This document shows, piece by piece, positions 10,816-29,351 of a stretch of DNA of 32,000 nt. The position numbers and the translations under genes are program-made. The stretch covers positions 960,001-992,000 of the forward strand of contig NC_014972.1 of the NCBI RefSeq assembly GCF_000186885.1, in the 5' to 3' direction. Below the pieces are notes generated by a model. It ran no database searches and was not told where the DNA came from. It was given only the letters and a program-made list of their open reading frames with translations. Numbering within the stretch: the first letter of the stretch is position 1; the number at the start of each line of letters is the position of its first letter. The stretch is from Desulfobulbus propionicus DSM 2032. GTDB taxonomy: Bacteria; Desulfobacterota; Desulfobulbia; Desulfobulbales; Desulfobulbaceae.

Positions 10816-12663
10816 TCAGCCTTTTTTAACGAGCAGTTTATTGCCCGTTTGCACCGTGTTGGTGCTGAGTTTGTTCCAGGCTCGAATGTCCTGGGTGGAG
10901 GTTTGAAATTTTTTGGCGATCGCCGTCAGGGTGTCGCCATTTTTAACAACATACCATGTGTGTGGTTTTGTGCTTTTGGCGATCGCAACCGAAACCTTGG
11001 CTGCAGGCTCCGCTTTTGCGGTTTTGGCGATACTTGTTTTGGTCGCCGTCGGTTTGATCACTTCTGGCTTGTTGCCAGATGGCGCCTTGGCTACATTTTG
11101 CACGCTTTGTTTTTTGGTGGACGGATCCAGGGTCGGGATCGCGGCTGTCTTCGCCGCAGCAATCTTGACCGCCTTCGCGGCCACGGTCACCGGTTCTGGC
11201 TGCGGCCGCTCCGGATACAGGGAGAGTTTCTGGCCGCTTTTGATCGTGCTGGAGTTGGCGATTTTATTCCAGCGCAGGATGTCCTTGGTCGAAACCTGAT
11301 ATTGCTTGGCGATGGATGCCACGGTTTCACCCTGTTTGACCCGGTGGGAGACGGCCTGTTGCTTGGCAGGCTCGACTTTCACCATCTTCCCTGGTTTGTC
11401 GACTTTGGCGACGCGATCCTCGGCCTGGTCCTCGCTGTTGAGCAGCACATACTTTGTCGAGGTGGACGGTATCTGGAGACGTAATCCTCTTTTCAGCTGG
11501 GCGGTGCGCAGATTGTTCGCCTTGAGCAGGCTGGTCTTGCTGATCTTGTAAAGGTTGCAGATCTCGGTCAGCGTTTCACCCTTTTTGACGGTGTGGGTCG
11601 TGTAGACAGTTCTGGTCACCGGTCGCAATTTATCCAGATTGGCGGCAATCAATTCTTTGCATCCCACGGGGATGCGCAGGGTGTATTCATTTTTGGGCGG
11701 TGTCTGGTTCTTTCGCAGCTCGTTGTTGAGCGAGCGCAGTTGCTTGATCGAGGTATTGGCTGTGAGCGCCACGGCTTCCAGGGCAACGCCTCCAGGCACG
11801 GTGATGGTTTCGTATTCGTGAGGGGTTTTATAGGCAATATCGGTGAATCCGTATTTTTCCGGATTGCGGGCGATGATGATGGCCGCGATCAATTTGGGCA
11901 CATACCGTTTGGTTTCCATGAAAATACCTTCGGATGCGGCCACCTCCCAGAAATCCGAAGCATTGTACGTTTTCATGGCGGTGTCGATCTTGCCCTCGCC
12001 GGCATTATAGGCCGCAACGGCGAGGTACCAATCCCCGAATTGCGAGTAAAGGCGGGACAGGTAACGGATGGCTGCCTTGGTCGCCTTTTCCGGTTCGCGT
12101 CGCTCGTCGACCCAGGAATCAACCCGAAGTTTGTATGTTTGTGCCGTTCCTTCCATGAACTGCCACAGGCCGCAGGCTTCGGCCGGCGAATAGGCGGACG
12201 GGTTGAACCCTGATTCGATCATGGCCAGATACACCAGATCCAAAGGAAGCCCGGCTCTTTTCAATTCCCGCTCGATATACGGACGATATATGGTGGAGCG
12301 GGCGAGCCACTGGGTGAAATAATTGCGTTGTTTTCCCTGAAACAGTTCAAGGTAGTAGAGAACCTGCTTGTTGACGGTAATGGGAAAATCGTATTTGGAA
12401 GGATCAATCCCCAGCTTCTCCAGGGAATAGGTGGTCTTCACCCCATATTCCCACGCACCCGGCTTGTTGAGCGCTTCCAGTTCTTCCTGGGCGGTTTCTT
12501 CGGGTTCAGCCGATGCAATTTCCTCATCTTGGATGTCGGCATCCGTCACAGGGGTGGGTGAACGGTGCAGGGCCGAACGTTTTGGGTGTGAGGAGCAGGC
12601 GGAAAGTGAAATGCAAAGAAGGGCGATGCAACAGGAGTTAAGCAGAACGGGCAATATTTTCAT
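10816..12663 (-). CDS. mltD: Membrane-bound lytic murein transglycosylase D-like lipoprotein with three LysM domains
   Basis: 615 aa. Lipoprotein signal LLCISLSACSS. SLT catalytic region YLAMIESGFNPSAYSPAEACGLWQF. Three LysM-like repeats: HTVKKGETLTEICNLY, HRVKQGETVASIAKQY, YVVKNGDTLTAIAKKF. Confidence 0.88.
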   Translation of the reverse strand: MKILPVLLNSCCIALLCISLSACSSHPKRSALHRSPTPVTDADIQDEEIASAEPEETAQEELEALNKPGAWEYGVKTTYSLEKLGIDPSKYDFPITVNKQVLYYLELFQGKQRNYFTQWLARSTIYRPYIERELKRAGLPLDLVYLAMIESGFNPSAYSPAEACGLWQFMEGTAQTYKLRVDSWVDERREPEKATKAAIRYLSRLYSQFGDWYLAVAAYNAGEGKIDTAMKTYNASDFWEVAASEGIFMETKRYVPKLIAAIIIARNPEKYGFTDIAYKTPHEYETITVPGGVALEAVALTANTSIKQLRSLNNELRKNQTPPKNEYTLRIPVGCKELIAANLDKLRPVTRTVYTTHTVKKGETLTEICNLYKISKTSLLKANNLRTAQLKRGLRLQIPSTSTKYVLLNSEDQAEDRVAKVDKPGKMVKVEPAKQQAVSHRVKQGETVASIAKQYQVSTKDILRWNKIANSSTIKSGQKLSLYPERPQPEPVTVAAKAVKIAAAKTAAIPTLDPSTKKQSVQNVAKAPSGNKPEVIKPTATKTSIAKTAKAEPAAKVSVAIAKSTKPHTWYVVKNGDTLTAIAKKFQTSTQDIRAWNKLSTNTVQTGNKLLVKKG

Positions 12664-13231
12664 ATGTAGTAGTGGGGTTTATGCAACCTTGTATTGCATT
12701 GAAATGATATTGTTTTTCTGCAAACAGCATTATTTGTGAACACAGCAGGCAAGATGTAGTGGTTCTTTTACCATTAAAATAAAATGAAAGACAAGAAAAA
12801 CTCATTGAGAAGGCAATTTTTTTCATCCAATCAGTCAAGTATTCTTCGTATTTTTTTGAAAAACTGCCTTTTTCCCGTTTTCCACACCCAGGTGTACTCT
12901 CCTGCTCGGGAGACGAAGTGCGGGGAGAAACAGCCCTTGGCGCGATAGATTGGCTGGACTGCCCGAGCGATGGTCTGGTTGTGTTTCGGGGGTCTGCCGG
13001 ATTGGAAACAGGGGGCTGAGCGCGAAGGACAGGGGGGATTCGAAGAAAAACTCCGAGCTTGATTCCTCCTAGGCTCCGCAGGTTTCCCTTTCTGTTGCCA
13101 GCAAGGTCTGGTATCCTTGCCGATTTGTCAACAATGTCGAGGGTAATTTATCTAATTCGTGCTCCCGCCCGAAATTTTTCTGCAAACTCTTGTAATGGCG
13201 GTTGGTCGCGTGTCCATCGGTATCAAGAACC

Positions 13232-16200
13232 ATGATCAGATTTTTTAAATACTGTTTTGTCTTCTTTTTCTTTTGCTCCCTGCTGATGGTGGCGGCCGGA
13301 ACCGCAGGCCTCTATTACCTTGTCGTCATGGTTCCCACGCCCGAGATCGAGGAAGCGCATATCAACGAGATCCTGGGTCGGGAAAGTCCCGTGTTCTACC
13401 GTGACGGTCAGACAAAACTCGGGGTCCTGTTTGAAGGGATTCATCGCCAGTATTTGCCGTACAAGGACATTCCCCAAGATTTTGTCAACGCCCTGATCGC
13501 GGCCGAGGATAATCAATATTTTCATCATTTCGGCATTGACCCGCCAGGAATCATCCGGGCAATGATCGCCAACCTGCAGGCGGGCCGCATCGTCCAGGGC
13601 GGGAGCACCATTACCCAGCAAACCGCGAAAAACCTGTTTAAGCGGGAATCGCGGAGCATGGAGGCCAAGATCAAGGAACTGCTGTTCGCCCTGCGTCTGG
13701 AGCATCGGTACAGCAAGGAGAAAATCCTCGAATTTTATTGCAATCAGTTTTTTGTCAGCGGCAACGGACATGGTCTCGGGGTCGCGGCCCGCTATTTTTT
13801 TGACAAGGAACCCAAGGAGCTGACCCTGCTGGAATGCGCCTTCATCGCCGGCAGTGTCAAGCGGCCCAATTATTACAATCCCTTTCTGAGGAAAAATCAG
13901 GCGAATGCCGAGGAGGTCCGGCAGCGAGGAGAGGAGCGGGTCAATTACGTGCTCGAACAGATGCGCAAGGTCGGGATGCTGGGCGAGCGCGACTACAAAC
14001 AGCTCAATGTCTCTAATCTGGTCTTTCGTCAAGGGAAGATGTCCTTTGCCCAGAACACGGCCATGGACCTGGTCAAGGAGGGCCTGGAAACCGCTTTCAT
14101 CGCCGACACCCTGGAGGAAAACGGCATATCCAACATTTCCACCTCGGGCGCCCGGATCATCACCTCGCTGGACCAGTCCATTCAAGCAAAGACTGTGCAG
14201 GCCTTGCGGCGGCAACTCTCGCAACTCGATGTGCGCCTGCGCGGCTATTCACGCGCTCAGGTACAGAGCGAATACCAGTCGCTTGACTATTCAGGGGATG
14301 AAGACTTTGTGCCCGGCAATTGCGTTTTCGGCACCGTGGAGGAGATCACGGACACCCGGGAACGCGGACCGGTTGTGCGGGTGGTGTTTGACGAAGGGCG
14401 GGCTGTGGGGACAATCGACAGCTCCGGTCTGGTGCGGCTGGCCGATGCCCATGCCAAATTCGCGCGCAACGCCGCTGCTTCTGGACCGGCCGACCGCAAG
14501 GCCGTGCTGCGGCAGGTACAGGCGGGCGACAAGGTCTATACCTGTATCCGCGAGGTTGACGACGGGGGCATGCTGCTGCTTGACTTGGAAAAATACCCCA
14601 AGGTCGAAGGCGCGGCCTTTGTCCTTCAGGAAGGGGCTATCCGGGCGATGAGCGGCGGCATGTCCAATCTCAACTATAATCGGGCGACCACGGCCAAACG
14701 GTTGATGGGGTCAACGTTCAAGACCTTTGTCCTCGCCGCGGCCCTGCAGTTGGGGTGGAGTCCGATCGACATGATCAGCAATACCCCCCAGACCTTTATG
14801 TTCATGAACCGTCCGTATGCGCCCCAGCCTGATCATGACAGTCCCTTCGGCTCGGTTTCTCTCAGTTGGGCGGGCGTGACCTCGGAGAACGTGGCCGCCG
14901 TCTGGTTGCTCTACCATCTCACCGATCACCTGACCCCGGCGATGGTCCGGGAATTGGCGACTCAGGTGGACATGGCGCCGCGCGTTGTGGATGGAACAAC
15001 CGAGGACTACCAGCAGTACAAGGCGCGCATGCGCGATAAGTACGGTATCGTTGTGTCCCGGGAATATTTGGGGCGGGCCGTGTTCAGCAGTGCCGTGCGC
15101 GCCCTTAAGCCGGATTTCGTGTTCGAGAACCGGACCGGCGAGTACGGCCGTCTGGAGCGGATGCGTTACGACGAATTTCTCGGGCTGAGGGCGCTGCTGC
15201 CCCGGCTGGCCGAGTTCCGACGTTCGCCGCTGCAGAGCCCCCCCACGGTGGACCCGGACAGCGCTTTTGACAACCCGGGGGAGAGCGTTCCGCCAACGGC
15301 TGGACGTCTGGTGAAGGATACGCTTGGCCGTTTCATCTTTACCCGGCGCTCGGAGTTGCCGCCCAACTGGATGGAACTGAGCGCGCGCGAGATCGCCGAT
15401 CACCTGTTCTCCCTCGACCCGACCCGGTATGAATCCTTCTGGCAGGAGGAGGTACAGCTGGAGGGGGTGCTTTCGGCCGCCGATGTGCAGCAGCTGGACG
15501 AACAGATCCGCATCGAGCGCGACAAGGTGGACAGCGACAAGCTGTATTCCATGGAAGTGCTCAGTGAAGTCCGTGATTTCAGGGTGATGCTCGGTTTGCA
15601 GTACATGGTTCGGCTGGCCAAGGAATGTGGCATCAACAGTAATTTTGAACCGGTTCTGTCGCTGCCGCTTGGCTCCAACGTCGTTTCCCTGTCGGAAATG
15701 ACCCGTCTCTACGAGACACTGCTCACCGGCTACCGGCATGACGCCGCCGATGCGTCAACCCTGGCCCTCGCCGAGCTTGACGGACGTGTTGACCCGGATG
15801 GCGCGGCCATTATTGAACGGATCGAGACCCCGGAGGGAAGGGTGGTCTATTCTCGCCAGGTGCATAAAACGCGGGTGATCGATGCCAAGAGTTCGGCGGC
15901 CATCGGCAATATCCTCCAGAACGTCATTCCCTACGGTACCGGCAAATATGCCAAGGAACACGTCCGTCTGCGCAGTACCGATCCGGAACGGCAGAAGATC
16001 GTTGACGGCATCAAACAGACCTATCCGCTCCTGGGTAAGACAGGGACGGCCAACGATTATCGGAATGCCGCCTTTCTTGGTTTTGTTCCGGTGCTGTTGC
16101 CCGATCAATCCGGGGTGGGGTTCGAGGGGGGCTACACGGTTGGTGTCTATACAGGCTATGATGACAATATGCCCATGGTCAGGGGCAGGTTTCGGGTTAG

Positions 16201-16739: not shown

Positions 16740-18449
16740 ATGATGATACTCACTCCCCGTTGTACCGCCAAATCCCTGGTGGTTACTGCTTGTTGTTGCG
16801 GCCTGTTGCTTTCCGGATGCGCCACTGACAGCCGGATGATCGATCCCTCCGCAGCCCGCGCGCAGCGGGAAGCCGCTATGCGCCAGGAAGGGGGAGGGCA
16901 ACCCGCCACCGAAGTGGTCAATCGGGATGTGTTGCTGCCGGCGATGACCTCCATCAACACCCGGATCCGTGCCTATGAGGAGAAATTGCAGGATTGGCGG
17001 GAGGTACAGAAGAATTCCGAGATTCTGGCGCTGCCGCTTGAAAAACGCAACCGGATCAACGAGTGTGAATCTCAACTGCAGGATATTCTCCTGGAGTACA
17101 CCTCGTTGCAGAAACAGTTGCAGCAGGAAACCAGAGTCGATGCCGCCCAGCTGTTGGCCGGTAACTCGTTGTTGCAACTCAACCAGCAGGATATCGATTA
17201 TTTGGAAAGCGGCTGCGGCGCATTCCTGGTTGAGCTTAAGGAAACACCGCAACCAGCGGTTTCGGCGGCCGCCGATCCCCAGATTAAGGCCGCTTTCGAC
17301 CAGGGCGACTATGACCAGGTCATCAACTTGTATGCCAAGCTGCCGTTGGCGCCCAATCAGAGCCCGGCCGCTGAGACCACCTATCAATACGGCTTGGCCC
17401 TGCTGAAAAATCATCAGGAATCCGAGGCGCGCCGGATTCTGGGCGACCTGTTGCCCAAGGTACGCGAGCAGCAGGGGGACAGCGAACTCTTGTTGCCGAT
17501 GATGCAGCTCGTCGCGGACATTGATTTCGCCGGAGAGGCCTATGACGAGGCGCGGCGGCAATACGAGCAGGTCGTTCAGTTGTCGATCGAGAAGGGAGCC
17601 CACAAGGAAGAATGGCCCGGCCTGCAACTCGCCGCCCTGCAACCTGGTGGCGTGACGCCGGAAGAGATGAAGGAATATGGCGCGCTGCTGAAAAATTACC
17701 TGGCCTTCAACCCTAAACGTGACGGTAATGCCGTGGCCGAGCAGGCGGATCGGTTTCTGCAAGCGTATCCGGCGTCACGGTTTGTTCCCAACGTCAATAC
17801 CATGCGCAATGACAGCCGCGCGCAAGCGGAAGCCTGGGTCAACCAGGGGAGCAAGCGGGTGGAGGAGATGGCCGGCGAACGGAAGGCGACGGAGGTGCAA
17901 GCCACAGGCGGGCCGGTAGCCGCCGTGACCGCTCCGGCAGCTTCATCGACTGCGGTGGAAAATGTCCAGGTTGGGAACGCTCCACCGACACCGGTTGTCG
18001 ATGAAAAGGCCTTGCAGGAAGACTATGACCGGGGTGCGGCCCATCTGCAGGCGCGGGAATACGACAAGGCGATCGAGCGGTTGAACCGGCTGCGGCAGAC
18101 CGCCTATGAGGCCAAGGCCAATCCCCTGATTGCAGAAGCTTCCAAACTCGGTGCCCAGGATGCGCGGCAAAAAGCGGCCGAACTTTTTGTCCGCGCCACC
18201 AACAGCCGTGACACCGAGGAGAAGCGCAAACTTCTGCTCGGCTCCCGCGATTTGCTTCAGGGCGCCTTGACCAAATACCCCCAATCGGGCCTGGCCGACA
18301 AAATCCAGCGCAACCTCGCCCGGATCGAAGCCGAACTTCGTGCCGTGGACGCCACCACCGCTGCGCCGAAACCGGTCACCAGCGGCGGTGCCTATGTACC
18401 GCCGAAGGCCGGAACCGGCGCGGCAGGTGCGCCGGCGACCTCCTTGTAG
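16740..18449 (+). CDS. Predicted lipoprotein with coiled-coil and TPR-like helical repeats and an Ala/Pro-rich tail; function unknown
   Basis: Signal peptide plus lipobox, MMILTPRCTAKSLVVTACCCGLLLSGC. A heptad-like Q/L/E-rich segment (RIRAYEEKLQDWREVQ...LQKQLQQE). TPR-like stretches (DYDQVINLYAKL..., EDYDRGAAHLQAREYDKAIERL...). The upstream in-frame ATG 16653 (with an AGGA SD) is an alternative start; 16740 puts the signal peptide at the N-terminus. Confidence 0.7.
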   Translation: MMILTPRCTAKSLVVTACCCGLLLSGCATDSRMIDPSAARAQREAAMRQEGGGQPATEVVNRDVLLPAMTSINTRIRAYEEKLQDWREVQKNSEILALPLEKRNRINECESQLQDILLEYTSLQKQLQQETRVDAAQLLAGNSLLQLNQQDIDYLESGCGAFLVELKETPQPAVSAAADPQIKAAFDQGDYDQVINLYAKLPLAPNQSPAAETTYQYGLALLKNHQESEARRILGDLLPKVREQQGDSELLLPMMQLVADIDFAGEAYDEARRQYEQVVQLSIEKGAHKEEWPGLQLAALQPGGVTPEEMKEYGALLKNYLAFNPKRDGNAVAEQADRFLQAYPASRFVPNVNTMRNDSRAQAEAWVNQGSKRVEEMAGERKATEVQATGGPVAAVTAPAASSTAVENVQVGNAPPTPVVDEKALQEDYDRGAAHLQAREYDKAIERLNRLRQTAYEAKANPLIAEASKLGAQDARQKAAELFVRATNSRDTEEKRKLLLGSRDLLQGALTKYPQSGLADKIQRNLARIEAELRAVDATTAAPKPVTSGGAYVPPKAGTGAAGAPATSL

Positions 18450-18563
18450 CGGAATCGCCGGACAGTCAACTGATGCGGGGAGCGCTTCTGTTCAGGGAAC
18501 GTCGTCACCTTTGATCGTGAAAGGAGGGCGGCTGGAGTTGGGAGCAATGGAGGGGTGATTCTT

Positions 18564-18591
18564 TCCGGTACTGACAGGAGTCGGATATCCT
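18564..18591. repeat. Left copy of a split direct repeat flanking the low-GC islet
   Basis: TCCGGTACT[gacaggagt]CGGaTATCCT, versus TCCGGTACTCGGcgTATCCT at 19818-19837. The shared blocks are 9+3+6 nt in the same order and orientation. Confidence 0.35.
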
Positions 18592-18659
18592 CGGGGCAAT
18601 GCTTCATTGCCAAACGTGTGGGACAACGGCGTTCTCCTCTCGTTCGAACCGGTTGGTGG

Positions 18660-19673
18660 TCAGCCGAGCAACTGCTCGACATGGGGAATCAAATTCTTTT
18701 CGTTGACAAGCGTTACCTCGTACATGCTGGTCAAACCCTGGGCCTGTTCATCGCTTAATCCAGCGACGCAGAGTATGAAATGGGACCGGTCTATCGCAAG
18801 TCGCTTGCGCAATCGTGAATATTTGTCCAAATCTTGACGAAATTCTCCTGATTTGCATTCTATGCACAGAGGAATGTTGTTGTTGATCAGGAAAAAGACA
18901 TCCAGTTCGTGAAAGTCTTCATTGGGGAGGGTGACCGTTAGGCTGCGCGCACCAGAAAATGGTGTGTGCTTTTCTTGTAACAGGTTGAAGACCTTGATGA
19001 AAACAAACCATTCAAGCCAAGTGCCATTGAAAAATTGAACGATCGCCGGCGCGGTTTGCAGGGTAAGTTTTACGATTTTCTCGTGTTTTTGATAAAAACA
19101 CTTGGCGACAAAGGAAAATCGATAGAGCTGGTTGCAAAAATTCACGATCTCCTGAATATGCTTCTGGCTTTTCTTGGCCAGTTGAAAATGTACATTGGTA
19201 TAGCCTTTATTCTGAATTCGTTTTATCTTTTCGCTCACTTCTCGAAGGACTTCATAGTTATTCCCTAGTTCGACCGCCATCTCGTCAAAGAACCCTGTCG
19301 TGTCGAGTTCCTTTGGATTGACCTTCACGGTGACTTTTTTTGCTCCAAACCACTCGATGATCGGCTGGTATTGTTGATCATTGGCCAACTCGGTCGTGTT
19401 ATGGATGTCAATATCCTTCAGGGAAAAGAGTTCTCCGCTTGGCTGGTCAATGACTTGTATTTCCAGCGGATCGGAAGCGTTTGTTGTCTGTTGCAGTTTG
19501 ATCAGCTCTTTTTGTAGCGCAAAATATTTTTCCAGAATTTTCTCAACAAAGGCCACCGTGTCGTGGATGGGCGCGATGTGTTGGCATTGAGGACATTTGG
19601 CCGATTTTCCAATATGTTCGCTGGCCACCTCGCGAAGGTGACCGCATTTGTTGCAGCGAAAGAGAGCCATCAA
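18660..19673 (-). CDS. Zinc-ribbon protein with C-terminal Card1/Can2-like (DUF1887-type) PD-(D/E)xK nuclease domain; no CARF domain recognised
   Basis: 337 aa. N-terminal CxxC-x16-CxxC (C7, C10, C27, C30). The C-terminus GTWLEWFVF...HELDVFFLINNNIPLCIECKSGEF gives an E221/D258/E272/K274 restriction-endonuclease-like signature resembling the Card1/Can2 nuclease domain. Gene GC is about 37-48% by hand counts, against 62-72% in the flanks. Confidence 0.7.
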   Translation of the reverse strand: MMALFRCNKCGHLREVASEHIGKSAKCPQCQHIAPIHDTVAFVEKILEKYFALQKELIKLQQTTNASDPLEIQVIDQPSGELFSLKDIDIHNTTELANDQQYQPIIEWFGAKKVTVKVNPKELDTTGFFDEMAVELGNNYEVLREVSEKIKRIQNKGYTNVHFQLAKKSQKHIQEIVNFCNQLYRFSFVAKCFYQKHEKIVKLTLQTAPAIVQFFNGTWLEWFVFIKVFNLLQEKHTPFSGARSLTVTLPNEDFHELDVFFLINNNIPLCIECKSGEFRQDLDKYSRLRKRLAIDRSHFILCVAGLSDEQAQGLTSMYEVTLVNEKNLIPHVEQLLG

Positions 19674-19720
19674 AGAAACCTGTGTAATGGAAAGGGTGAG
19701 AGCGGGAGAGTGTATTGTCG

Positions 19721-19741
19721 TTAATTTTTTATTAAAATTAA
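19721..19741. promoter_or_regulatory. AT-only perfect palindrome upstream of the nuclease gene (possible operator/promoter element)
   Basis: TTAATTTT-ttatt-AAAATTAA. The 8-bp arms are perfect reverse complements. It lies 48-68 nt upstream of the start codon at 19673. Confidence 0.3.
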
Positions 19742-19817
19742 AATGTTGGGATGGTCAAGCAAAACTTCCCGCGCTTGCTTGGGGCCGCTTGCATCCACAA
19801 GTCGGCAGGCAGGTGCA

Positions 19818-19837
19818 TCCGGTACTCGGCGTATCCT
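19818..19837. repeat. Right copy of the split direct repeat flanking the low-GC islet
   Basis: TCCGGTACTCGGCGTATCCT; see the left copy at 18564-18591. Confidence 0.35.
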
Positions 19838-19957
19838 GTTGGTGTCAAGGTGTGCCCCTTCCCGTTGACAAAGCGGCGCCGGTCGCTTACTTCTGTGGCT
19901 GCTTTTAGCCTCGGCAAGGTATTTTCAAGGGAAACAGGCAAAAAGGAGGAGGCTCCC

Positions 19958-20557
19958 ATGACTGTCATCAGTGAACAAACCATCGATCTGGGATCGTGTG
20001 CGGTGCATGCGCTTGCGTGTGGACCAACCAGTTCCGCCACTGTCGTTCTGCTGCACGGCATGAAGTTTCAGGCCGAGACCTGGCGGCAATTGGGTACCCT
20101 GGAATTCCTGGCGGGCATGGGGCAGCATGTATTGGCGGTGGATATGCCCGGATTTGGCCGGAGTCCGGCCAGCGAGGCCGCGCCGGTTGCGGTGCTCGCA
20201 CGGTTGTTCGAGCATTTGGCCATCGAGCGGGTGACCCTGATCGGCCCTTCCATGGGTGGGCGCATTGCCCTGGAATTTTCCCTGAACTATCCGCAGCGAA
20301 TCGCTGGTCTGGTTTTGGTTGGTGCCGTGGGCGTGGAGGACAACCGGTCCGGTTTGGGCGTCATTACCGCGCCGACCCTGATCGTCTGGGGCGGCGAGGA
20401 CCAGGTTTCTCCGCTGGGCAACAGCGACATCCTGTTGGCGGGAATCAAGGGCGCCACCCGGGAGATTTATCCGGGAGCACCGCATCCCTGTTACCTGGAA
20501 CAGCCGGATCGTTGGCACGCCAGTCTGCGCACCTTTTTTACATCTCTCGCCAAGTGA
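19958..20557 (+). CDS. Alpha/beta-fold hydrolase
   Basis: 199 aa from ATG 19958, preceded by a strong AAGGAGGAGG SD. VVLLHGMKF (oxyanion region), nucleophile elbow GPSMGG, C-terminal GAPHPCYLEQP. The track ORF start at 19751 is an unsupported extension. Confidence 0.8.
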   Translation: MTVISEQTIDLGSCAVHALACGPTSSATVVLLHGMKFQAETWRQLGTLEFLAGMGQHVLAVDMPGFGRSPASEAAPVAVLARLFEHLAIERVTLIGPSMGGRIALEFSLNYPQRIAGLVLVGAVGVEDNRSGLGVITAPTLIVWGGEDQVSPLGNSDILLAGIKGATREIYPGAPHPCYLEQPDRWHASLRTFFTSLAK

Positions 20558-20577
20558 GGCAACAAGCGGCCCTCCCC

Positions 20578-23043
20578 ATGGGAAAAACACTGATCATTGC
20601 CGAAAAGCCTAGCGTTGCCGCCGATATCGTCAAGGCCTTGCCAGGAAAATTCACTAACGCCAAGACCCACTATGAAAGTGACGAGTACATCGTCTCCTAC
20701 GCCATCGGCCATCTGGTGTCCATCGCCTACCCCGAGGAGATCAACCCCGAACTGAACAAGTGGACCCTGGACAACTTGCCCATCCTGCCCGAGGAGTTTC
20801 CCCTGGCGGTGCTACCGGACACCAAGGCCCAATTCAATGCGCTGACCAAACTGATCCGCCGCCGCGACGTGGAGGTGATCGTCAACGGCTGCGACGCCGG
20901 CCGCGAGGGCGAATTGATCTTCAAGTACATTCTCAAGCAGGCCACCAATCGCTCGGTGGAGCACAAACGGGTCCAACGGTTGTGGCTGCAATCCATGACC
21001 CTGGATGCCATCCGCGACGGTTTGGGCAAGCTCAAGGACGACCAGGAGATGCGGCCTCTGGAGGATACGGCCCTGTGCCGCTCCGAGGCCGATTGGTTGA
21101 TCGGCATCAACGCCACCCGGGCCCTGACCTGCTACAACTCTCGCTTCGGCGGTTTCCGCAAGACACCCTGTGGCCGGGTGCAGACCCCGACCCTGTCGCT
21201 GTTGGTCAAGCGCGAGACTGAACGACGCGAGTTTGTGCCCACCACCTACTGGGAATTGCATGGCTGTTTCGTTTGCGGGCCGGTCGCCTACCAGGGGGTA
21301 TGGATCGATCCTGCCTTTGCCAAAGACGAGGAGCAGGCCCACGGCCGTCGCAACCGCATCTGGGAGGAAGAACGGGCCAAAGAGATTGCCGACCGCTGCA
21401 CCGGCAAGCCGGCCATGGTCGAGGAGAGCAGCAAGAAGTCGACCAAGGGCGCGCCGCCGCTGTACGACCTGACCCTGTTGCAGCGCGAGGCCAACAGCCG
21501 TTTCGGCTTTTCCGCCAAGAATACCCTGGCTCTGGCCCAGGCCCTCTACGAGCGGCACAAACTGATCACGTATCCCCGTACCGACAGCCGCTGCCTGCCC
21601 GAGGACTACCTGCCCACGGTGGTGAAGGTGGTTGGTCAGCAGCAGCAGTGGCAATATGGCCGTTTTGCGAGCGAGGCCCTGGAGAAGAAGTATCTCAAGA
21701 AAGACAAACGGATTTTTGACAACAAGAAGATTTCCGACCACTTCGCCATCATTCCCACCGCCGGCCTGCCCAAGACCCTGAGCGAGCCCGAGCTGAAGAT
21801 CTACCAGATGATCGTCCAGCGGTTTTTGGCCGTTTTCTTTCCCGCCGCAGTGTATCATAATACCCGGCGGCTTTCGCTGGTGGAGGGCGAAACCTTTCTC
21901 ACCGAGGGCAAGATCCTGGTGGAACCGGGCTGGCGGGCTATTTACGGCGCGAGCAGCGAGGAGGACGGCGATAAGGAATTGCAGGCACTGCCGCCGGATA
22001 CCCTGGTGCAGTGCGAGGACATCGACCGGCAGGAACATCAAACCAAGCCGCCGCCCCGATTCACCGAGGCGACCCTGCTCTCGGCCATGGAGCATTCGGG
22101 CAAGCTGGTCGAAGACGAGGAACTGGCCGAGGCCATGAAGGAGCGCGGCTTGGGCACGCCGGCCACGCGGGCGGCGATCATCGAGAAACTGATCAACGAA
22201 AAGTATATCGTCCGCGAGCAGCGCGAGCTGGTGCCCACGGGCAAGGCCTTCGAGCTGCTGAGTTTGCTTGAAGCCCGGAAGATCGACGTACTGGCCTCGC
22301 CGGAGCTGACCGGCGAATGGGAGTACAAGCTCAACCAGATCCTGAAAGGGGCCATGACCCGGACGCAGTTCATGAAAGAGATCCGGGAGATGACCGGGGC
22401 CATCGTCGACAAGGTCAAGCAGGGCGGAGGCACGGAGCGTCACGAGGCGCCTTTCTCGCCGGTGGACGGGGCCCGCTTTTACGAGACCGCCTCGGCCTAT
22501 GAATCCGAAGACAAGAAGCTGATCATCCGCAAGGTGCTGGGCGGCCGAGTGATGGACCCCGCGGAGATCGTCGAACTGATCCGGGGCAAAACCTTGGGGC
22601 CGTTCAACGATTTCCGCTCGAAAAAAGGCAAGCCCTTCACGGCCTCGGTGCACATCGCCAACTCCAAGGTCGAATTTCTCTTTGCCGATTCCACCGACGA
22701 ACTGAATCTGGACGAGATCCGCGGCCAGGAGCCGCTTGGTCTCTCACCCGTCGATCAGACCAAAGTGTTCGAAACGCCGGCCGGTTTTCTTTCCGAATCG
22801 GCGCTTGAGGGGGATCAGAAGAAGGGCTTGCGCATCTCCAAAATCATTTTGGGGAAAAAATTGGAACGGGAACACATCAGCCAGCTACTCGCCGATGGCC
22901 GCACCGAGCTGATTGGCGGTTTCATCTCCAAAAGGAAAAAGCCCTTTGACGCTTTCCTCCTGCTGGACGCCAAGGGCAAGCTGAGTTTTGCATTTCCCCC
23001 TCGGGGGAAGAAGGGCAAGGACAAGGAAGCCGATAACGGCTGA
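20578..23043 (+). CDS. topB: DNA topoisomerase III
   Basis: 821 aa from ATG 20578 (MGKTLIIAEKPSVA, TOPRIM). CDAGREGELIF. Catalytic-tyrosine region LITYPRTDSRCL. Two C-terminal repeats (GKTLGPFNDFRSKKGKPFTA and GGFISKRKKPFDAFLLLD) typical of the topoisomerase C-terminal repeat. The track ORF start at 19996 overlaps the hydrolase gene and is spurious. Confidence 0.9.
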   Translation: MGKTLIIAEKPSVAADIVKALPGKFTNAKTHYESDEYIVSYAIGHLVSIAYPEEINPELNKWTLDNLPILPEEFPLAVLPDTKAQFNALTKLIRRRDVEVIVNGCDAGREGELIFKYILKQATNRSVEHKRVQRLWLQSMTLDAIRDGLGKLKDDQEMRPLEDTALCRSEADWLIGINATRALTCYNSRFGGFRKTPCGRVQTPTLSLLVKRETERREFVPTTYWELHGCFVCGPVAYQGVWIDPAFAKDEEQAHGRRNRIWEEERAKEIADRCTGKPAMVEESSKKSTKGAPPLYDLTLLQREANSRFGFSAKNTLALAQALYERHKLITYPRTDSRCLPEDYLPTVVKVVGQQQQWQYGRFASEALEKKYLKKDKRIFDNKKISDHFAIIPTAGLPKTLSEPELKIYQMIVQRFLAVFFPAAVYHNTRRLSLVEGETFLTEGKILVEPGWRAIYGASSEEDGDKELQALPPDTLVQCEDIDRQEHQTKPPPRFTEATLLSAMEHSGKLVEDEELAEAMKERGLGTPATRAAIIEKLINEKYIVREQRELVPTGKAFELLSLLEARKIDVLASPELTGEWEYKLNQILKGAMTRTQFMKEIREMTGAIVDKVKQGGGTERHEAPFSPVDGARFYETASAYESEDKKLIIRKVLGGRVMDPAEIVELIRGKTLGPFNDFRSKKGKPFTASVHIANSKVEFLFADSTDELNLDEIRGQEPLGLSPVDQTKVFETPAGFLSESALEGDQKKGLRISKIILGKKLEREHISQLLADGRTELIGGFISKRKKPFDAFLLLDAKGKLSFAFPPRGKKGKDKEADNG

Positions 23044-23133: not shown

Positions 23134-23532
23134 ATGAAAAAATTAAAAAAAGAGTATGCGGAAAAAGAGGGCAGGGAACTGGCGGCGGTGTGCGCCCGCG
23201 TGGCCCTCGACACCAAGGCGGAGGAGGTGGTGGTGCTGGATGTGCGCGGCCTGGCTTCCTTCACCGACTATTTCGTGATCATGAGCGGCCGCTCCACCCG
23301 TCACGTGCAGGGGCTGGCCGAGGCCATCGAGGGCGAGCTGAGCACCAAGCGGATCAGCAGCAAGCACAGCGAGGGGTTGCGCGAGGGGATGTGGGTGTTG
23401 CTCGATTTCGGCGATGTGGTGGTGCACATCTTCTATCATGAGAACCGTGCTTTTTATGATCTGGAGGGGTTGTGGCACGATGCCCCCAAGATCGATGTCG
23501 ACAGCCTGCTGGCCGAAAACGCCCAGCCCTGA
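23134..23532 (+). CDS. rsfS: Ribosomal silencing factor RsfS (iojap family)
   Basis: 132 aa. VVVLDVRGLASFTDYFVIMSGRSTRHVQGLAEAI ... WVLLDFGDVVVHIF ... YDLEGLW matches the RsfS pattern. Confidence 0.88.
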   Translation: MKKLKKEYAEKEGRELAAVCARVALDTKAEEVVVLDVRGLASFTDYFVIMSGRSTRHVQGLAEAIEGELSTKRISSKHSEGLREGMWVLLDFGDVVVHIFYHENRAFYDLEGLWHDAPKIDVDSLLAENAQP

Positions 23533-23550
23533 TTGCCAAGGAGGTCCATC

Positions 23551-25110
23551 ATGTCCGCGCCCGTTCCCGTTATCCTGGCCATCCTCGACGGTTGGGGAAT
23601 TGCCGATCCCGTGCCGACCAACGCGGTTTTTGTCGCCAAGACCCCCAACATGGACCGGCTGAGCGCCGCCTATCCCATGACCACGCTCGTTGCCCACAAC
23701 GGCATGGTCGGCCTGCCTGAAGGCCAGATGGGCAATTCCGAGGTCGGCCACCTCAACATCGGCGCCGGACGGATCGTCTACCAGGATTTCACCCGCATCA
23801 ACCTGGCGGTGGAGCGGGGCGAGCTGGCCGCCAATCCGGTATTCAACAGGGTAATGGAGCAGGTCAAGGCGGCGGACAGCCGCCTGCATCTGTGCGGCCT
23901 GGTCTCCGACGGCGGTGTGCACAGCCATCTCCGTCACTTGATCGCCCTGATTGAACTGGCGGCAGCCAAGGGGGTCGAGGTGGTGGTGCACTGCTTCATG
24001 GACGGCCGCGACACCCCGCCGACGAGCGGCCTGGGTTTCATGGAGGAGCTGGTTGCGGCCATGGCACGGATCGGCTGCGGCCAGGTGGCCACGATCTCCG
24101 GCCGTTACTGGGCCATGGATCGGGACAAGCGTTGGGACCGGGTGAAAAAGGCCTGGGATGCCATGGTCGAAGGGGTTGGTCCGACCGCCGCCGATGCGGT
24201 CACGGTGATGCGCGAGGCCTATGCCCGGGGCGAGACCGACGAGTTTCTCACCCCGACCGTGCTGGTCGATGGCCAGGGCGTGCCGCTGGCCCGCATTCGC
24301 GATAATGATGCGGTGATCTTCTTTAATTTCCGCGCCGACCGGGTGCGCGAACTCTGTCATGCCTTTGGCGACGTCGATTTCAGCGGTTTTGATGCCGGCG
24401 TCCGGCCGCGGCTGCTGGCCCTGGCCACCATGACCGAGTACGAGGCCGATTTCCCCTTTCCCGTGGCCTTCCCGCCGGTGACACTCACCCACATCCTCGG
24501 CGAGGAGGTCAGTCGCCATGGCCGCCGCCAGCTGCGCATCGCCGAGACCGAGAAGTACGCCCATGTGACCTATTTTTTTAACGGCGGCAACGAGGTCCCC
24601 TATCCGGGCGAGGACCGGCTGCTGATCAATTCGCCGCGCGATGTGGCCACCTACGACCAGAAACCGCAGATGAGCGCGGTCGAGGTGACCGACCGGCTGC
24701 TCGCGGCCCTGGCCGAGCGGGAAGCGGCCGGTGCGCCCTACGATCTGGTGATCCTCAACTTCGCCAACGGCGACATGGTCGGCCATACCGGGATAATGGC
24801 CGCGGCGGTGGCGGCCTGCGAGACCGTGGACCGGTGCGTGGGCCGGATCGAGCAATTTGTCCGCGAGCGGGGTGGGGTGCTGTTGATCACCGCCGATCAC
24901 GGCAACGCCGAGCAGATGGTCGACCCGCAGAACAGCGGCCCCTACACCGCCCATACCCTCAGTCCGGTGCCGTTCATCGTGGTCTCCGAGGCGTTCCGAA
25001 ACCGGACCCTGCGCCCCGGCGGCGCGCTCAAGGACATCGCTCCCACCATCCTCACTCTGATGGAGCTGCCGATCCCGAAAGAGATGGAAGGGGAGAGCTT
25101 GATCGTCTGA
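23551..25110 (+). CDS. gpmI: 2,3-bisphosphoglycerate-independent phosphoglycerate mutase
   Basis: 519 aa from ATG 23551, preceded by an AAGGAGG SD. ILDGWG, MGNSEVGHLNIGAGR, GLVSDGGVHSH, NFANGDMVGHTG, TADHGNAE. Confidence 0.92.
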   Translation: MSAPVPVILAILDGWGIADPVPTNAVFVAKTPNMDRLSAAYPMTTLVAHNGMVGLPEGQMGNSEVGHLNIGAGRIVYQDFTRINLAVERGELAANPVFNRVMEQVKAADSRLHLCGLVSDGGVHSHLRHLIALIELAAAKGVEVVVHCFMDGRDTPPTSGLGFMEELVAAMARIGCGQVATISGRYWAMDRDKRWDRVKKAWDAMVEGVGPTAADAVTVMREAYARGETDEFLTPTVLVDGQGVPLARIRDNDAVIFFNFRADRVRELCHAFGDVDFSGFDAGVRPRLLALATMTEYEADFPFPVAFPPVTLTHILGEEVSRHGRRQLRIAETEKYAHVTYFFNGGNEVPYPGEDRLLINSPRDVATYDQKPQMSAVEVTDRLLAALAEREAAGAPYDLVILNFANGDMVGHTGIMAAAVAACETVDRCVGRIEQFVRERGGVLLITADHGNAEQMVDPQNSGPYTAHTLSPVPFIVVSEAFRNRTLRPGGALKDIAPTILTLMELPIPKEMEGESLIV

Positions 25111-25227
25111 AGGCTCCCGTTGGGGTGGAAGAGAAGGCGTATCGGCAAGCGCGATGGGCAGGATCACCCTTTTCCATCCAACAGACTCCAGATTGATAGA
25201 TTAACCAGCTGACAAAGGAACACAACC

Positions 25228-29102: not shown

Positions 29103-29351
29103 ATGTTTGGACTTGGAACCCCTGAACTGATCATCATTCTCCTGATCGCCTTCCTCATCTTCGGCAGCAAAAAACTGCCGGAAATCGGCGCCGGGCTCGG
29201 CAAGGCCATTGGCTCCTTCAAGAAGGGACTCGGCGAAGTCGAGGAGGCCGGCGACAGCCTCAAGAAAAATTTGCCGGTGGTCAAGGAGATCACCGACGTC
29301 AAGGAAACCATCGACAAGGCCAAGGGCATCACCAACGTCCTTGGCAAATAA
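29103..29351 (+). CDS. tatA: Twin-arginine translocase TatA/E family subunit (copy 2, longer tail)
   Basis: 82 aa. MFGLGTPELIIILLIAFLIFGSKKLPEIGAGLGKAIGSFKKG. No clear SD, but the family match is unambiguous. Confidence 0.85.
   Translation: MFGLGTPELIIILLIAFLIFGSKKLPEIGAGLGKAIGSFKKGLGEVEEAGDSLKKNLPVVKEITDVKETIDKAKGITNVLGK

What the first reader, a model, noticed from the sequence alone, without database searches (positions are those of the whole stretch)
18560..19840. Low-GC single-gene islet encoding a zinc-ribbon / Card1-like nuclease without a CARF sensor
One minus-strand gene (18660..19673) sits in a sharp compositional trough. Hand-counted 60-nt lines give 37% GC (18841-18900), 37% (19081-19140) and 48% (18781-18840). 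The flanks give 72% (18361-18420) and 62% (19981-20040). The C-terminal third of the protein (aa ~215-320, nt 18714-19031) carries GTWLEWFVF ... HELDVFF ... CIECKSG. This is an E/D/ExK restriction-endonuclease-fold signature that I recognise as resembling the DUF1887 nuclease domain of cyclic-oligoadenylate-activated Card1/Can2 CRISPR ancillary effectors. In those effectors the nuclease is fused to an N-terminal CARF sensor. Here the N-terminus is instead a CxxC-x16-CxxC zinc ribbon (aa 7-30), a short coiled-coil-like stretch, and an unassigned domain of about 120 aa (aa ~85-205). The window has no CRISPR array, cas gene or cyclase. This looks like a horizontally acquired, differently gated nuclease effector, that is, a candidate one-gene defence or addiction module with an uncharacterised sensor domain.
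Basis: partly seen in the sequence, partly recalled or inferred. Interest (0 to 1): 0.75.

Follow-up and report, generated by a model that had tools for sequence, protein, structure and literature searches.

The report
Zinc-ribbon Card1-type nuclease, no CARF
This gene encodes a nucleic-acid-cutting enzyme of the type that CRISPR systems switch on with a small signalling molecule, but its signal sensor is replaced by a zinc-binding head, and it is an old, vertically inherited resident of this genome rather than a recent import.

Summary
A minus-strand ORF (18660..19673) lies in a GC trough, 0.454 against 0.587 in the flanks. Its true start is probably the ATG at 19670, giving 336 aa. It has a CxxC-x16-CxxC ribbon and an intact E/D/ExK site.

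The Card1/Can2 assignment is supported. Pfam PF09002 scores just above its cut-off, a PADLOC CARF_PDDEXK profile gives 2.6e-12, and the only significant Foldseek matches are VC1899, Cdn1, Card1 and Can2. No CARF domain is present.

Two parts of the interpretation fail. The gene is not a recent islet: Desulfobulbus relatives carry it at the same position, it diverges in step with PBP1A under strong purifying selection, and it has no mobility hallmarks. It is GC-poorer than its flanks in 63 of 63 loci, so the trough is a family trait. About 8 of the 13 points come from amino-acid composition.

The "unassigned sensor domain" from about aa 155 is the accessory part of the Can2-type nuclease domain. 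Residues 93-155, with an invariant DTTGFFDE, remain unexplained.

The aa ~90-336 module recurs with other heads (TerD, zinc ribbons, TPR, S1) and never with CARF, always as a solo gene. No cas gene or cyclase was seen nearby. A defence role is plausible but unproven.

The parts
18660..19670 (-). CDS of the zinc-ribbon/Card1-type nuclease (336 aa from the ATG at 19670; the ORF finder's TTG at 19673 adds one residue). Residue numbers below use the 337-aa numbering.
   Evidence: (P0001 is 336 aa and 100% identical)
19560..19667 (-). N-terminal zinc ribbon, aa 3-38, with C7/C10/C27/C30 invariant in the family
   Evidence: Weak, below-cut-off matches to Pfam Zn_ribbon_8 (3.9e-4) and NCBIfam FmdB-type CxxC_CxxC (1.7e-4). 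Four short strands in the AF2 model at pLDDT about 90. Invariant Cys.
19482..19559 (-). Long single helix, aa 39-64, a candidate coiled-coil/dimerisation element. It is much longer in some relatives.
   Evidence: AF2 helix H39-64. Relatives P0132 and P0134 have about 100-250 aa of coiled-coil-like sequence here. Dimerisation is inferred.
19398..19481 (-). Variable, disordered linker, aa 65-92
   Evidence: pLDDT below 50 for aa 65-81. Length- and sequence-variable columns in A1.
19209..19397 (-). Family-specific helical region, aa 93-155, with invariant D124-T-T-G-F-F-D-E131 and near-invariant Q154/K156/Y158. Possibly a remnant of the last third of a CARF domain; this is not established.
   Evidence: Invariant columns. 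hhalign A1 vs A6 places LDTTGFF on the CARF beta4 motif LNxTDGL and QNKGY on LKGY. The region alone is not significant (28 of 300 permutations). The isolated domain has no significant fold match.
19050..19208 (-). Accessory alpha/beta sub-domain, aa 156-208 (strand, helix 170-185, hairpin 189-205). It corresponds to the accessory motif that precedes the nuclease core in Can2/VC1899.
   Evidence: hhalign maps aa 155-275 onto residues 154-277 of a 361-aa CARF-nuclease. PADLOC PD_DExK profile PDLC01131 aligns from aa 149. Can2 domain description in PMC7969007. TMq of 0.47-0.50 exceeds what the core alone could give.
18663..19049 (-). Card1-type PD-(D/E)xK nuclease core, aa 209-337. Catalytic candidates: E221 (19011-19013), E256, D258 (18900-18902), E272 (18858-18860), K274 (18852-18854).
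   Evidence: PF09002 at 26.9 bits against a 26.4 cut-off. PADLOC CARF_PDDEXK. PDB profile hits to Can2 at 1.2e-10 and Card1 at 3.4e-8, with ELD and ECK aligned. These residues are invariant or nearly so across the wider family.
19671..19957 (.). Divergent intergenic region between the nuclease gene and the alpha/beta-hydrolase gene, including an AT-rich tract at about 19720-19745. The nuclease gene's promoter is presumably here.
   Evidence: Sequence. The consensus scan finds no sigma-70-like site on the minus strand here. A spacer of about 295 bp is kept in the syntenic locus L003.

Best explanation
The gene encodes a stand-alone member of the Card1/Can2 (DUF1887) nuclease lineage. The cyclic-oligoadenylate-sensing CARF domain is absent. 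In its place are a four-cysteine zinc ribbon, one long helix and a flexible linker. The rest of the protein (aa ~155-336) is the Can2-type 'extended' nuclease domain: an accessory alpha/beta sub-domain plus a PD-(D/E)xK core. All catalytic residues are conserved, so it is very likely an active metal-dependent nuclease. Can2, Card1 and Cdn1 act as dimers whose nuclease domains must be brought together. By that analogy I infer that this protein dimerises through its helix and/or the invariant DTTGFFDE region. I also infer that its activity is gated by something other than cOA, acting through the zinc-ribbon head. The same aa ~90-336 module occurs with other heads (TerD, other zinc ribbons, TPR, S1), as expected for an effector with exchangeable sensors. 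In this genome the gene is a long-standing, vertically inherited, strongly constrained single gene among housekeeping genes. Its low GC is a property of the family and not a sign of recent transfer. The biological role is inferred, not shown. Most likely it is a CRISPR-independent conflict or stress-response nuclease. A housekeeping nucleic-acid-processing role is the main alternative.
For: Identity: PF09002 above its gathering score. PADLOC CARF4--CARF_PDDEXK at 2.6e-12. Family profile against the PDB: Can2 1.2e-10, Card1 3.4e-8, Cdn1 3.8e-6, VC1899 1.3e-5. AF2 model with pLDDT 87.5. Its only significant Foldseek PDB matches (21 at E<=0.001) are all VC1899, Cdn1, Card1 or Can2 chains, over 234-315 columns. 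No CARF: no CARF family among the 13 Pfam matches listed at the E<=10 setting, a ribbon-plus-helix N-terminus in the model, and none of 68 longer relatives matches a CARF model. Active enzyme: E221, D258, E272 and K274 are invariant or nearly so, and dN/dS is about 0.05. Exchangeable heads: 882 clusters at 50% identity; 47 of 116 full-module representatives have an N-terminal CxxC..CxxC; TerD occurs in 6 of 68. Resident gene: synteny in L002-L004. Identity 81.5% and 74.3% against 80.1% and 74.2% for PBP1A. No repeats or tRNA. No phage, plasmid or viral relatives. GC: lower than the flanks in 63 of 63 loci, r = 0.86 with host GC. Expected GC with host codons is 0.506, against 0.454 observed and 0.587 for the host. 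Conflict link: CARF and TerD are both regarded as sensors of nucleotide-like ligands (PMC4012209, PMC7159879). About 10 of 143 dereplicated neighbours are defence or TA-like.
Against: No experiment exists for any member. No partner gene is conserved: no neighbour family occurs in more than 8 of 82 loci. Most neighbours are metabolic or housekeeping genes. Housekeeping-like conservation and long-term synteny are unusual for defence genes. Dimerisation and gating by the ribbon are inferences from Can2/Card1/Cdn1 papers, not shown here. The defence-neighbour fraction has no measured baseline. Residues 93-155 have no assigned fold.
Confidence: 0.6

Rival explanations
1. Housekeeping nucleic-acid-processing or repair nuclease. 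A dimeric, structure- or lesion-specific PD-(D/E)xK enzyme (in the manner of NucS/EndoMS) that the Desulfobulbaceae keep for genome or RNA maintenance, with the zinc ribbon and accessory domain used for substrate or partner binding.
For: Same syntenic slot among core genes in relatives. Divergence and dN equal to PBP1A, with dN/dS about 0.05. 50-60% identity across genera. Absent from phages, plasmids and viral contigs. Mostly housekeeping neighbours. Weak structural echoes of EndoMS/NucS (5gke, 2vld).
Against: All demonstrable relatives are conflict-system effectors. Heads vary (TerD, TPR, S1, ribbons), which is typical of sensor-effector systems. Genomic position differs between genera. About 56% identity between Desulfobulbaceae and a cyanobacterium implies lateral spread. 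Some loci show -0.23 GC offsets.
Confidence: 0.25
2. Recently acquired single-gene defence or addiction islet.
For: GC trough of 13 points and the lowest GC3 in the window. Single gene with its own intergenic spacers.
Against: Syntenic orthologues at 74-82% identity that diverge in step with their neighbours. The trough is seen in 63 of 63 loci and tracks host GC. About 8 of the 13 points are due to amino-acid composition. No repeats, tRNA or integrase. No relatives on mobile elements.
Confidence: 0.05
3. Still a cyclic-nucleotide-responsive effector. A cryptic, reduced CARF remnant (aa ~98-138) binds a nucleotide signal made elsewhere in the genome, by a type III CRISPR or another cyclase.
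For: The co-linear profile alignment runs into CARF alpha3-beta4-alpha4 and puts the invariant DTTG on the CARF [DN]x[ST]xG motif. NCBI labels some members 'DUF1887 family CARF protein'.
Against: The relic region alone is not significant (P about 0.09). The parts of CARF that carry most cA4 contacts (after beta1, beta2 and beta5; PMC7969007) have no counterpart. Acidic D130/E131 sit near where the phosphate-binding Lys would be. No CARF model matches and the isolated domain has no CARF-like fold match. No cyclase or cas gene was detected among the dereplicated +/-2 neighbours of 82 loci.
Confidence: 0.05
4. Non-catalytic DNA-binding regulator that uses the accessory domain and an inactive nuclease fold.
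For: Weak winged-helix-like structural echoes of the middle region (SarA, MepR, ScpA-WHD).
Against: The full catalytic set is invariant across hundreds of clusters. The winged-helix matches are not significant (E >= 0.07).
Confidence: 0.03

Closest known systems
Can2 / Card1 / Cdn1 / VC1899 (DUF1887, CARF4-PD-(D/E)xK type III CRISPR ancillary nucleases; PDB 7BDV, 6WXW, 9U49, 1XMX)
   Same: Card1-type PD-(D/E)xK core with the same E..ELD..ECK catalytic residues, and the accessory sub-domain that precedes the core. Overall co-linearity from about aa 155 to the C-terminus.
   Different: No CARF domain. The N-terminus is a zinc ribbon, a helix and a disordered linker. No CRISPR-Cas or cyclase association was found among the neighbours scanned across 82 loci. 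The gene is solo and vertically inherited among housekeeping genes. The activator is unknown.
TerD-headed and other non-CARF relatives of the same module (e.g. P0145, P0154, P0247; annotated 'stress response protein SCP2')
   Same: They share the whole aa ~90-336 module at 30-46% identity, including the DxxFDxxAxxLG region. They are also solo genes in metabolic contexts.
   Different: The head is a TerD domain (or TPR, S1 or other ribbons) instead of the FmdB/Com-like ribbon. Many have a C-terminal extension of 80 aa or more (40 of 116).
Shedu (SduA, DUF4263), as a mechanistic analogy recalled from my own knowledge and not tested for homology
   Same: A single-gene system built from a conserved C-terminal PD-(D/E)xK nuclease with variable N-terminal sensing or inhibitory domains.
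   Different: No PADLOC Shedu profile is among the 14 matches listed at the E<=10 setting. It is a different nuclease family. Shedu is a demonstrated defence system, while this family is untested.
NucS/EndoMS
   Same: Dimeric two-domain PD-(D/E)xK enzyme. The Can2 nuclease domain superposes on EndoMS (PMC7969007), and there are weak Foldseek hits.
   Different: Only fold-level similarity (E >= 0.08), no sequence relationship, and a different N-terminal domain.

Membership tests
Card1/Can2 (DUF1887) cOA-activated CRISPR ancillary nucleases | Card1-type PD-(D/E)xK nuclease domain (Pfam PF09002) | tested here: met
   PF09002 at 26.9 bits against a 26.4 cut-off, aa 212-290. PADLOC CARF_PDDEXK at 2.6e-12. 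Family profile against Can2 at 1.2e-10. Foldseek VC1899 at 1.4e-10.
Card1/Can2 (DUF1887) cOA-activated CRISPR ancillary nucleases | Conserved catalytic E / D / ExK residues | tested here: met
   E256-L-D258 and E272-C-K274 align with ELD and ECK of Can2 and Card1. They are invariant or nearly so in the family.
Card1/Can2 (DUF1887) cOA-activated CRISPR ancillary nucleases | N-terminal CARF (Rossmann-like) domain that binds cyclic oligoadenylate | tested here: not met
   No CARF family among the Pfam matches listed at the E<=10 setting. The AF2 N-terminus is a ribbon plus a helix. The isolated aa 85-210 model has no CARF-like match. A possible remnant is not significant. A genuine 597-aa relative does show a weak, sub-threshold PF23400 CARF_Card1 match (0.0035).
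Card1/Can2 (DUF1887) cOA-activated CRISPR ancillary nucleases | Genomic association with type III CRISPR-Cas or a cOA-producing cyclase | tested here: not met
   No CRISPR array in the window, and no cas gene among the proteins scanned. No cas or cyclase family appears in the listed summaries for 143 dereplicated neighbours from 82 loci; each summary shows only the first 25 families. The rest of the genome is unseen.
Card1/Can2 (DUF1887) cOA-activated CRISPR ancillary nucleases | Nuclease activity switched on by cA4/cA6 | not testable with these tools
   Needs biochemistry.
Recently acquired genomic islet | Atypical base composition relative to the flanks | tested here: met
   0.454 against 0.587. 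However, this is seen in 63 of 63 loci and is largely due to amino-acid composition.
Recently acquired genomic islet | Absent from the syntenic site in relatives, or divergence out of step with neighbours | tested here: not met
   Present at the same site in L002-L004 and L010-L012. Identity matches PBP1A.
Recently acquired genomic islet | Mobility hallmarks (tRNA, flanking repeats, integrase; relatives on phages or plasmids) | tested here: not met
Known anti-phage defence system (PADLOC-DB v2.0.0) | Match to a defined system's protein set | tested here: inconclusive
   Matches only CRISPR-ancillary effector profiles (CARF_PDDEXK, Csx1, PD_DExK), and no other system. Databases newer than 2023 were not available.
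Ter (TerD) stress-response proteins | TerD domain | tested here: not met
   This protein has no TerD match. Only paralogous architectures carry it.

The most novel reading that the evidence does not exclude
The Can2/Card1 effector nuclease has a large, uncharacterised, CRISPR-independent sister radiation (at least 882 clusters at 50% identity). In it the CARF sensor was cut down to, at most, a short invariant remnant (DTTGFFDE) and replaced by interchangeable heads: zinc ribbon with coiled coil, TerD, TPR or S1. These proteins would be self-contained one-gene sensor-effector nucleases that respond to a non-cOA cue. The zinc-ribbon form, kept vertically in Desulfobulbaceae and cable bacteria, would be a domesticated, tightly controlled version.
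Probability: 0.3. Interest if true: 0.7.

Novelty: new variant of a known kind. Interest (0 to 1): 0.5.

Why it matters
Card1/Can2 nucleases are understood only as cOA-switched accessories of type III CRISPR. A large family that keeps the nuclease and its accessory domain but has exchanged the CARF sensor for other heads would show that this effector is reused outside CRISPR signalling. It would also offer a tractable system for asking how the same nuclease is gated by a different input. In practice, public annotations of this family are misleading ('DUF1887 family CARF protein', 'phage FluMu protein Com', 'PII-like signaling protein'). The case also shows that a sharp GC trough can be a family-intrinsic trait of a long-resident gene rather than evidence of recent transfer.

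Tried and rejected
1. The genome-contig scan used the single protein, whose patterns were too strict, and returned only one locus. That used the only scan, so a presence/absence survey across complete genomes was not possible.

2. A homologue search seeded with a 72-aa Can2 fragment found nothing. I reached CARF-containing relatives through tblastn on plasmids instead.

4. Modelling the middle domain alone (pLDDT 75) and fold-searching it gave no significant match, neither CARF nor Can2. The best resemblances were Smr and winged-helix folds at E >= 0.07. I therefore do not call it a wHTH or a new sensor fold.

5. CARF-remnant idea. It is attractive in the full profile-profile alignment, but the region alone fails a permutation control (28 of 300). 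I keep it as a lead only.

6. Searches for relatives on phages, plasmids, IMG/VR contigs and BFVD structures were all negative.

7. Search for a conserved partner gene: none found.

8. The promoter and terminator scans gave nothing above shuffled expectation.

9. Literature searches for CARF-less DUF1887/Card1-like proteins found no description. The 2020 CARF classification paper is not in the searchable library.
Full report
OBSERVATION

The minus-strand ORF 18660..19673 exists and encodes 337 aa from a TTG. All homologues begin MALFRC, and an identical 336-aa protein (P0001) is in the public collection. The real start is therefore almost certainly the ATG at 19670.

The gene's GC is 0.454 against 0.587 for the rest of the window, with 300-nt windows falling to 0.41. 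The quoted motifs are present: CxxC-x16-CxxC at C7/C10/C27/C30, GTWLEWFVF, HELDVFF and CIECKSG.

The window contains no CRISPR-like array, no Rfam family at gathering score and no tRNA. The neighbouring genes I scanned are core genes. They include an SLT/LysM lytic transglycosylase, a PBP1-type transglycosylase/transpeptidase, an alpha/beta hydrolase, topoisomerase III, threonine synthase and an amidohydrolase. The adjacent 598-aa protein, which I call the TPR-like lipoprotein, had no Pfam family at that threshold. Genes at the two ends of the window were not scanned.

WHAT THE PROTEIN IS

Sequence evidence:
- Pfam's Card1_endonuc (PF09002) matches aa 212-290 at 26.9 bits, just above its 26.4-bit cut-off.
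- PADLOC's CARF4--CARF_PDDEXK profile gives 2.6e-12, and a dozen related profiles also match.
- A family profile searched against PDB sequences finds Can2 (1.2e-10), Card1 (3.4e-8), Cdn1 (3.8e-6) and VC1899 (1.3e-5). The ELD and ECK catalytic motifs are aligned.

Structure evidence:
- An AlphaFold2 model built on 47 homologues is confident, with pLDDT 87.5 and pTM 0.71.
- It shows a four-stranded zinc ribbon (aa 3-38), one long helix (39-64) and a disordered linker (65-81). A helical region follows (93-155), then a small alpha/beta unit (160-205) and the nuclease core (209-336).
- All 21 Foldseek PDB matches at E <= 0.001 are chains of VC1899, Cdn1, Card1 or Can2, over 234-315 alignment columns.
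- The nuclease core is only about 128 of 337 residues, so on its own it could contribute at most 0.38 to a query-normalised TM-score. The observed 0.47-0.50 means part of the region upstream of the core also superposes.

Catalytic residues: E221, E256, D258, E272 and K274 are invariant or nearly so in the close family. They stay so in alignments of distant relatives.

THE 'UNASSIGNED SENSOR DOMAIN'

The Can2 paper defines the CARF domain as residues 3-151 and the nuclease domain as residues 166-366. It notes an accessory motif of four helices flanking two antiparallel strands ahead of the PD-ExK core (PMC7969007). In Cdn1 the linker is residues 151-157 (PMC12825302).

To test the correspondence I retrieved genuine CARF-containing DUF1887 proteins and aligned the two families.
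- Family profile against a single 361-aa Arcobacter protein: our aa 155-275 map onto its residues 154-277.
- Profile against profile: our aa 98-274 map onto residues 68-276, with E = 1.8e-4 and probability 48%.

From about aa 155 onward, therefore, the protein is co-linear with what follows the CARF/linker boundary in Can2-type enzymes. The near-invariant Q154/K156/Y158 lands on their near-invariant LKGY.

The alignment also runs back into CARF. It puts the invariant LDTTGFF on the CARF beta4 signature LNxTDGL, and about 30 residues are missing between that point and the junction. The same register appears when the nuclease is left out, with E = 0.01.

The control fails, however. The candidate remnant alone against the CARF part alone scores no better than 28 of 300 column permutations, and that alignment stops before DTTG. 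Modelled alone, aa 85-210 gives no significant fold match. It retrieves neither CARF nor Can2, only weak echoes of Smr and winged-helix folds.

My conclusions on this region:
- There is no functional CARF.
- Residues 156-208 are the known accessory part of the nuclease domain.
- Residues 93-155, with the invariant DTTGFFDE, are family-specific and unexplained. A CARF-remnant origin is only a lead.

THE FAMILY

The protein belongs to a large, well-conserved family.
- 1163 clusters at 90% identity match at E <= 1e-3. The best 120 are nearly all full-length, at 51-100% identity. They come from Desulfobulbus, Desulfobulbaceae MAGs, Electrothrix, Electronema, Desulfosediminicola, Desulforhopalus, a KSB3 bacterium and the cyanobacterium Nodosilinea.
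- A search of 1.84 billion 50%-identity representatives finds 882 clusters, 110 of them at E <= 1e-30.
- In those hits the aa ~90-336 unit is a module that recurs in proteins of 330-924 aa.
- Of 116 representatives with a full module, 47 start with a CxxC..CxxC ribbon, 40 have a C-terminal extension of 80 aa or more, and only 5 have no N-terminal head.
- Among 68 longer relatives, 52 match PF09002 and 6 carry TerD. Others carry different zinc ribbons, TPR or S1 domains. None matches a CARF model.

TerD has been proposed to sense specialised nucleotide derivatives (PMC7159879). Links between VC1899-family genes and Ter gene clusters were noted in 2014 (PMC4012209).

IS IT A HORIZONTALLY ACQUIRED ISLET?

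No, at least not recently. The evidence falls into four groups.

Synteny:
- In an uncultured Desulfobulbus (74% identity) the gene lies in the same slot, between the lipoprotein/PBP1 genes and the hydrolase/topoisomerase III genes.
- In an 82%-identical relative the lipoprotein/PBP1/SLT side is conserved.

Rate of evolution:
- The gene's divergence matches its neighbours. It is 81.5% identical against 80.1% for PBP1A in one genome. In another it is 74.3% against 74.2% for PBP1A, 87.8% for topoisomerase III and 64.8% for the lipoprotein.
- Its dN of 0.115 is about the same as PBP1A's 0.121. Synonymous sites are saturated, so dN/dS is about 0.05.

Mobility:
- There are no flanking repeats of note, no tRNA and no integrase.
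- No relative was found in 50,697 phage records, 72,556 plasmids, IMG/VR contigs or viral structure predictions.

Composition:
- Across 63 loci with enough flank, the gene is GC-poorer than its surroundings in all 63, by 9.3 points on average.
- Its GC tracks host GC with r = 0.86. The gene ranges from 0.30 to 0.64 in hosts of 0.36 to 0.70.
- Recoding the protein with this genome's own codon usage predicts a GC of 0.506. About 8 of the 13 missing points are therefore due to a K/N/Q/F/E-rich, G/A/R/P-poor composition.
- The remaining points come from low GC3, 0.54 against 0.70 expected.

Lateral transfer has clearly happened on longer time scales. The gene sits in different contexts in Desulfosediminicola, Electrothrix and Nodosilinea. 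It is about 56% identical across phyla. A few loci have offsets as large as -0.23.

CONTEXT AND ROLE

- No neighbour family occurs in more than 8 of 82 loci, and the recurrent ones are lineage-specific synteny blocks. They are mostly housekeeping genes: a fumarase-class lyase, GlyS, DarP, an acyltransferase and a HAD hydrolase.
- Among 143 dereplicated neighbours within two genes, most are metabolic. About ten are defence or TA-like: AriA/AbiL-type ATPases (3), AbiEii (2), DndC, DpdF, ShosA and a type II methyltransferase.
- No cas gene or cyclase appears in the listed family summaries, which show only the first 25 families each.
- A TerD-headed relative is likewise a solo gene among sugar-metabolism genes.

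The evidence on role is therefore mixed. Ancestry and the exchangeable heads point to a conflict or stress effector. Conservation, synteny and the neighbours are compatible with a housekeeping nuclease.

MECHANISM (INFERRED)

Can2, Card1 and Cdn1 are dimers. Ligand binding at the CARF dimer re-orients the two nuclease domains to form the substrate cleft and the metal site (PMC7969007 and PMC12825302).

In this protein the CARF dimer is absent. I infer the following:
- The helix at aa 39-64, which is greatly extended as a coiled coil in some relatives, and/or the invariant DTTGFFDE surface provide dimerisation.
- The flexibly tethered zinc ribbon gates or targets the nuclease, by binding a protein or a nucleic acid.

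The substrate cannot be predicted. Family members cut ssRNA only (Cdn1), or RNA as well as DNA (Can2, and Card1 as recalled from the literature).

COMPARISON AND NOVELTY

The protein is a member of the Card1-type nuclease domain family. It is not a member of the Card1/Can2 class of cOA-activated CARF effectors, because two defining features were tested and not met: the CARF domain and the CRISPR association.

Public annotations vary ('Card1-like endonuclease domain-containing protein', 'DUF1887 family CARF protein', 'phage FluMu protein Com'), and the last two are misleading. I found no paper that describes the CARF-less architecture.

I rate it a new variant of a known kind and of moderate interest. 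The identity is solid, the islet reading is refuted, and the biological role is open.

Noticed in passing
window 12000-13500: A second, milder GC dip (0.485-0.50 in 1-kb windows). It covers the 5' end of the SLT/LysM gene and the 538-bp divergent intergenic region before the PBP1 gene (12664-13201).
   Followed up: no
window 23143-25167 (-): The 674-aa ORF here has no Pfam match and appears to be a shadow ORF. Its tblastn match in syntenic L003 lies antisense to the called RsfS and iPGM genes, so the real genes are on the + strand.
   Followed up: partly
window 19751-20557 and 19996-23043 (+): The mechanical ORF starts are too far upstream. Homologues indicate that the hydrolase starts near 19958 (199 aa) and topoisomerase III near 20611 (810 aa). 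The long N-terminal extensions overlap other genes.
   Followed up: partly
L091 4654-6447 (Caballeronia sp. SBC2 plasmid pSBC2-5): A 597-aa CARF-containing DUF1887 protein sits in an operon-like run: FtsK/SpoIIIE, DUF1887, VWA, PP2C phosphatase, Ser/Thr kinase, AAA. This is the TerY-P-type, non-CRISPR context that Makarova et al. 2014 mention for VC1899-family genes.
   Followed up: no
L007 9119-10905 (Electrothrix sp. GW3-4) and L085 9065-14233: In the DarP-linked lineage, the slot just downstream of the nuclease gene holds different defence-like cargo. One locus has an AbiL/AriA-type ATPase with a 227-aa partner. The other has a 1722-aa DpdF/GajB-like double helicase. This suggests a local variable defence spot.
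   Followed up: partly
L082 and L084 (marine sediment contigs): Here the family member has a GC of 0.298 against flanks of about 0.53 (-0.23), far beyond the family's usual offset. This fits a recent transfer in that lineage.
   Followed up: no
L092 8001-9524: A TerD-headed relative (507 aa, annotated 'stress response protein SCP2') is a solo gene between glycogen phosphorylase and sugar-phosphate metabolism genes. It is not in a ter cluster.
   Followed up: partly
family-wide: The named hosts include cable bacteria (Electrothrix, Electronema), a Nodosilinea cyanobacterium and KSB3 'Vecturithrix', several of which I recall as filamentous. This is anecdotal and was not tested for enrichment.
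   Followed up: no
window 18660-19670 vs orthologues: Synonymous divergence of the nuclease gene (pS 0.71-0.86) is higher than that of its neighbours (0.56-0.72), and its GC3 differs between orthologues (0.54, 0.49, 0.45). This fits weak codon-usage constraint or low expression.
   Followed up: partly
window 29280-29315: Two copies of an 18-nt tandem repeat, 83% matching, inside a coding region. Probably trivial.
   Followed up: no
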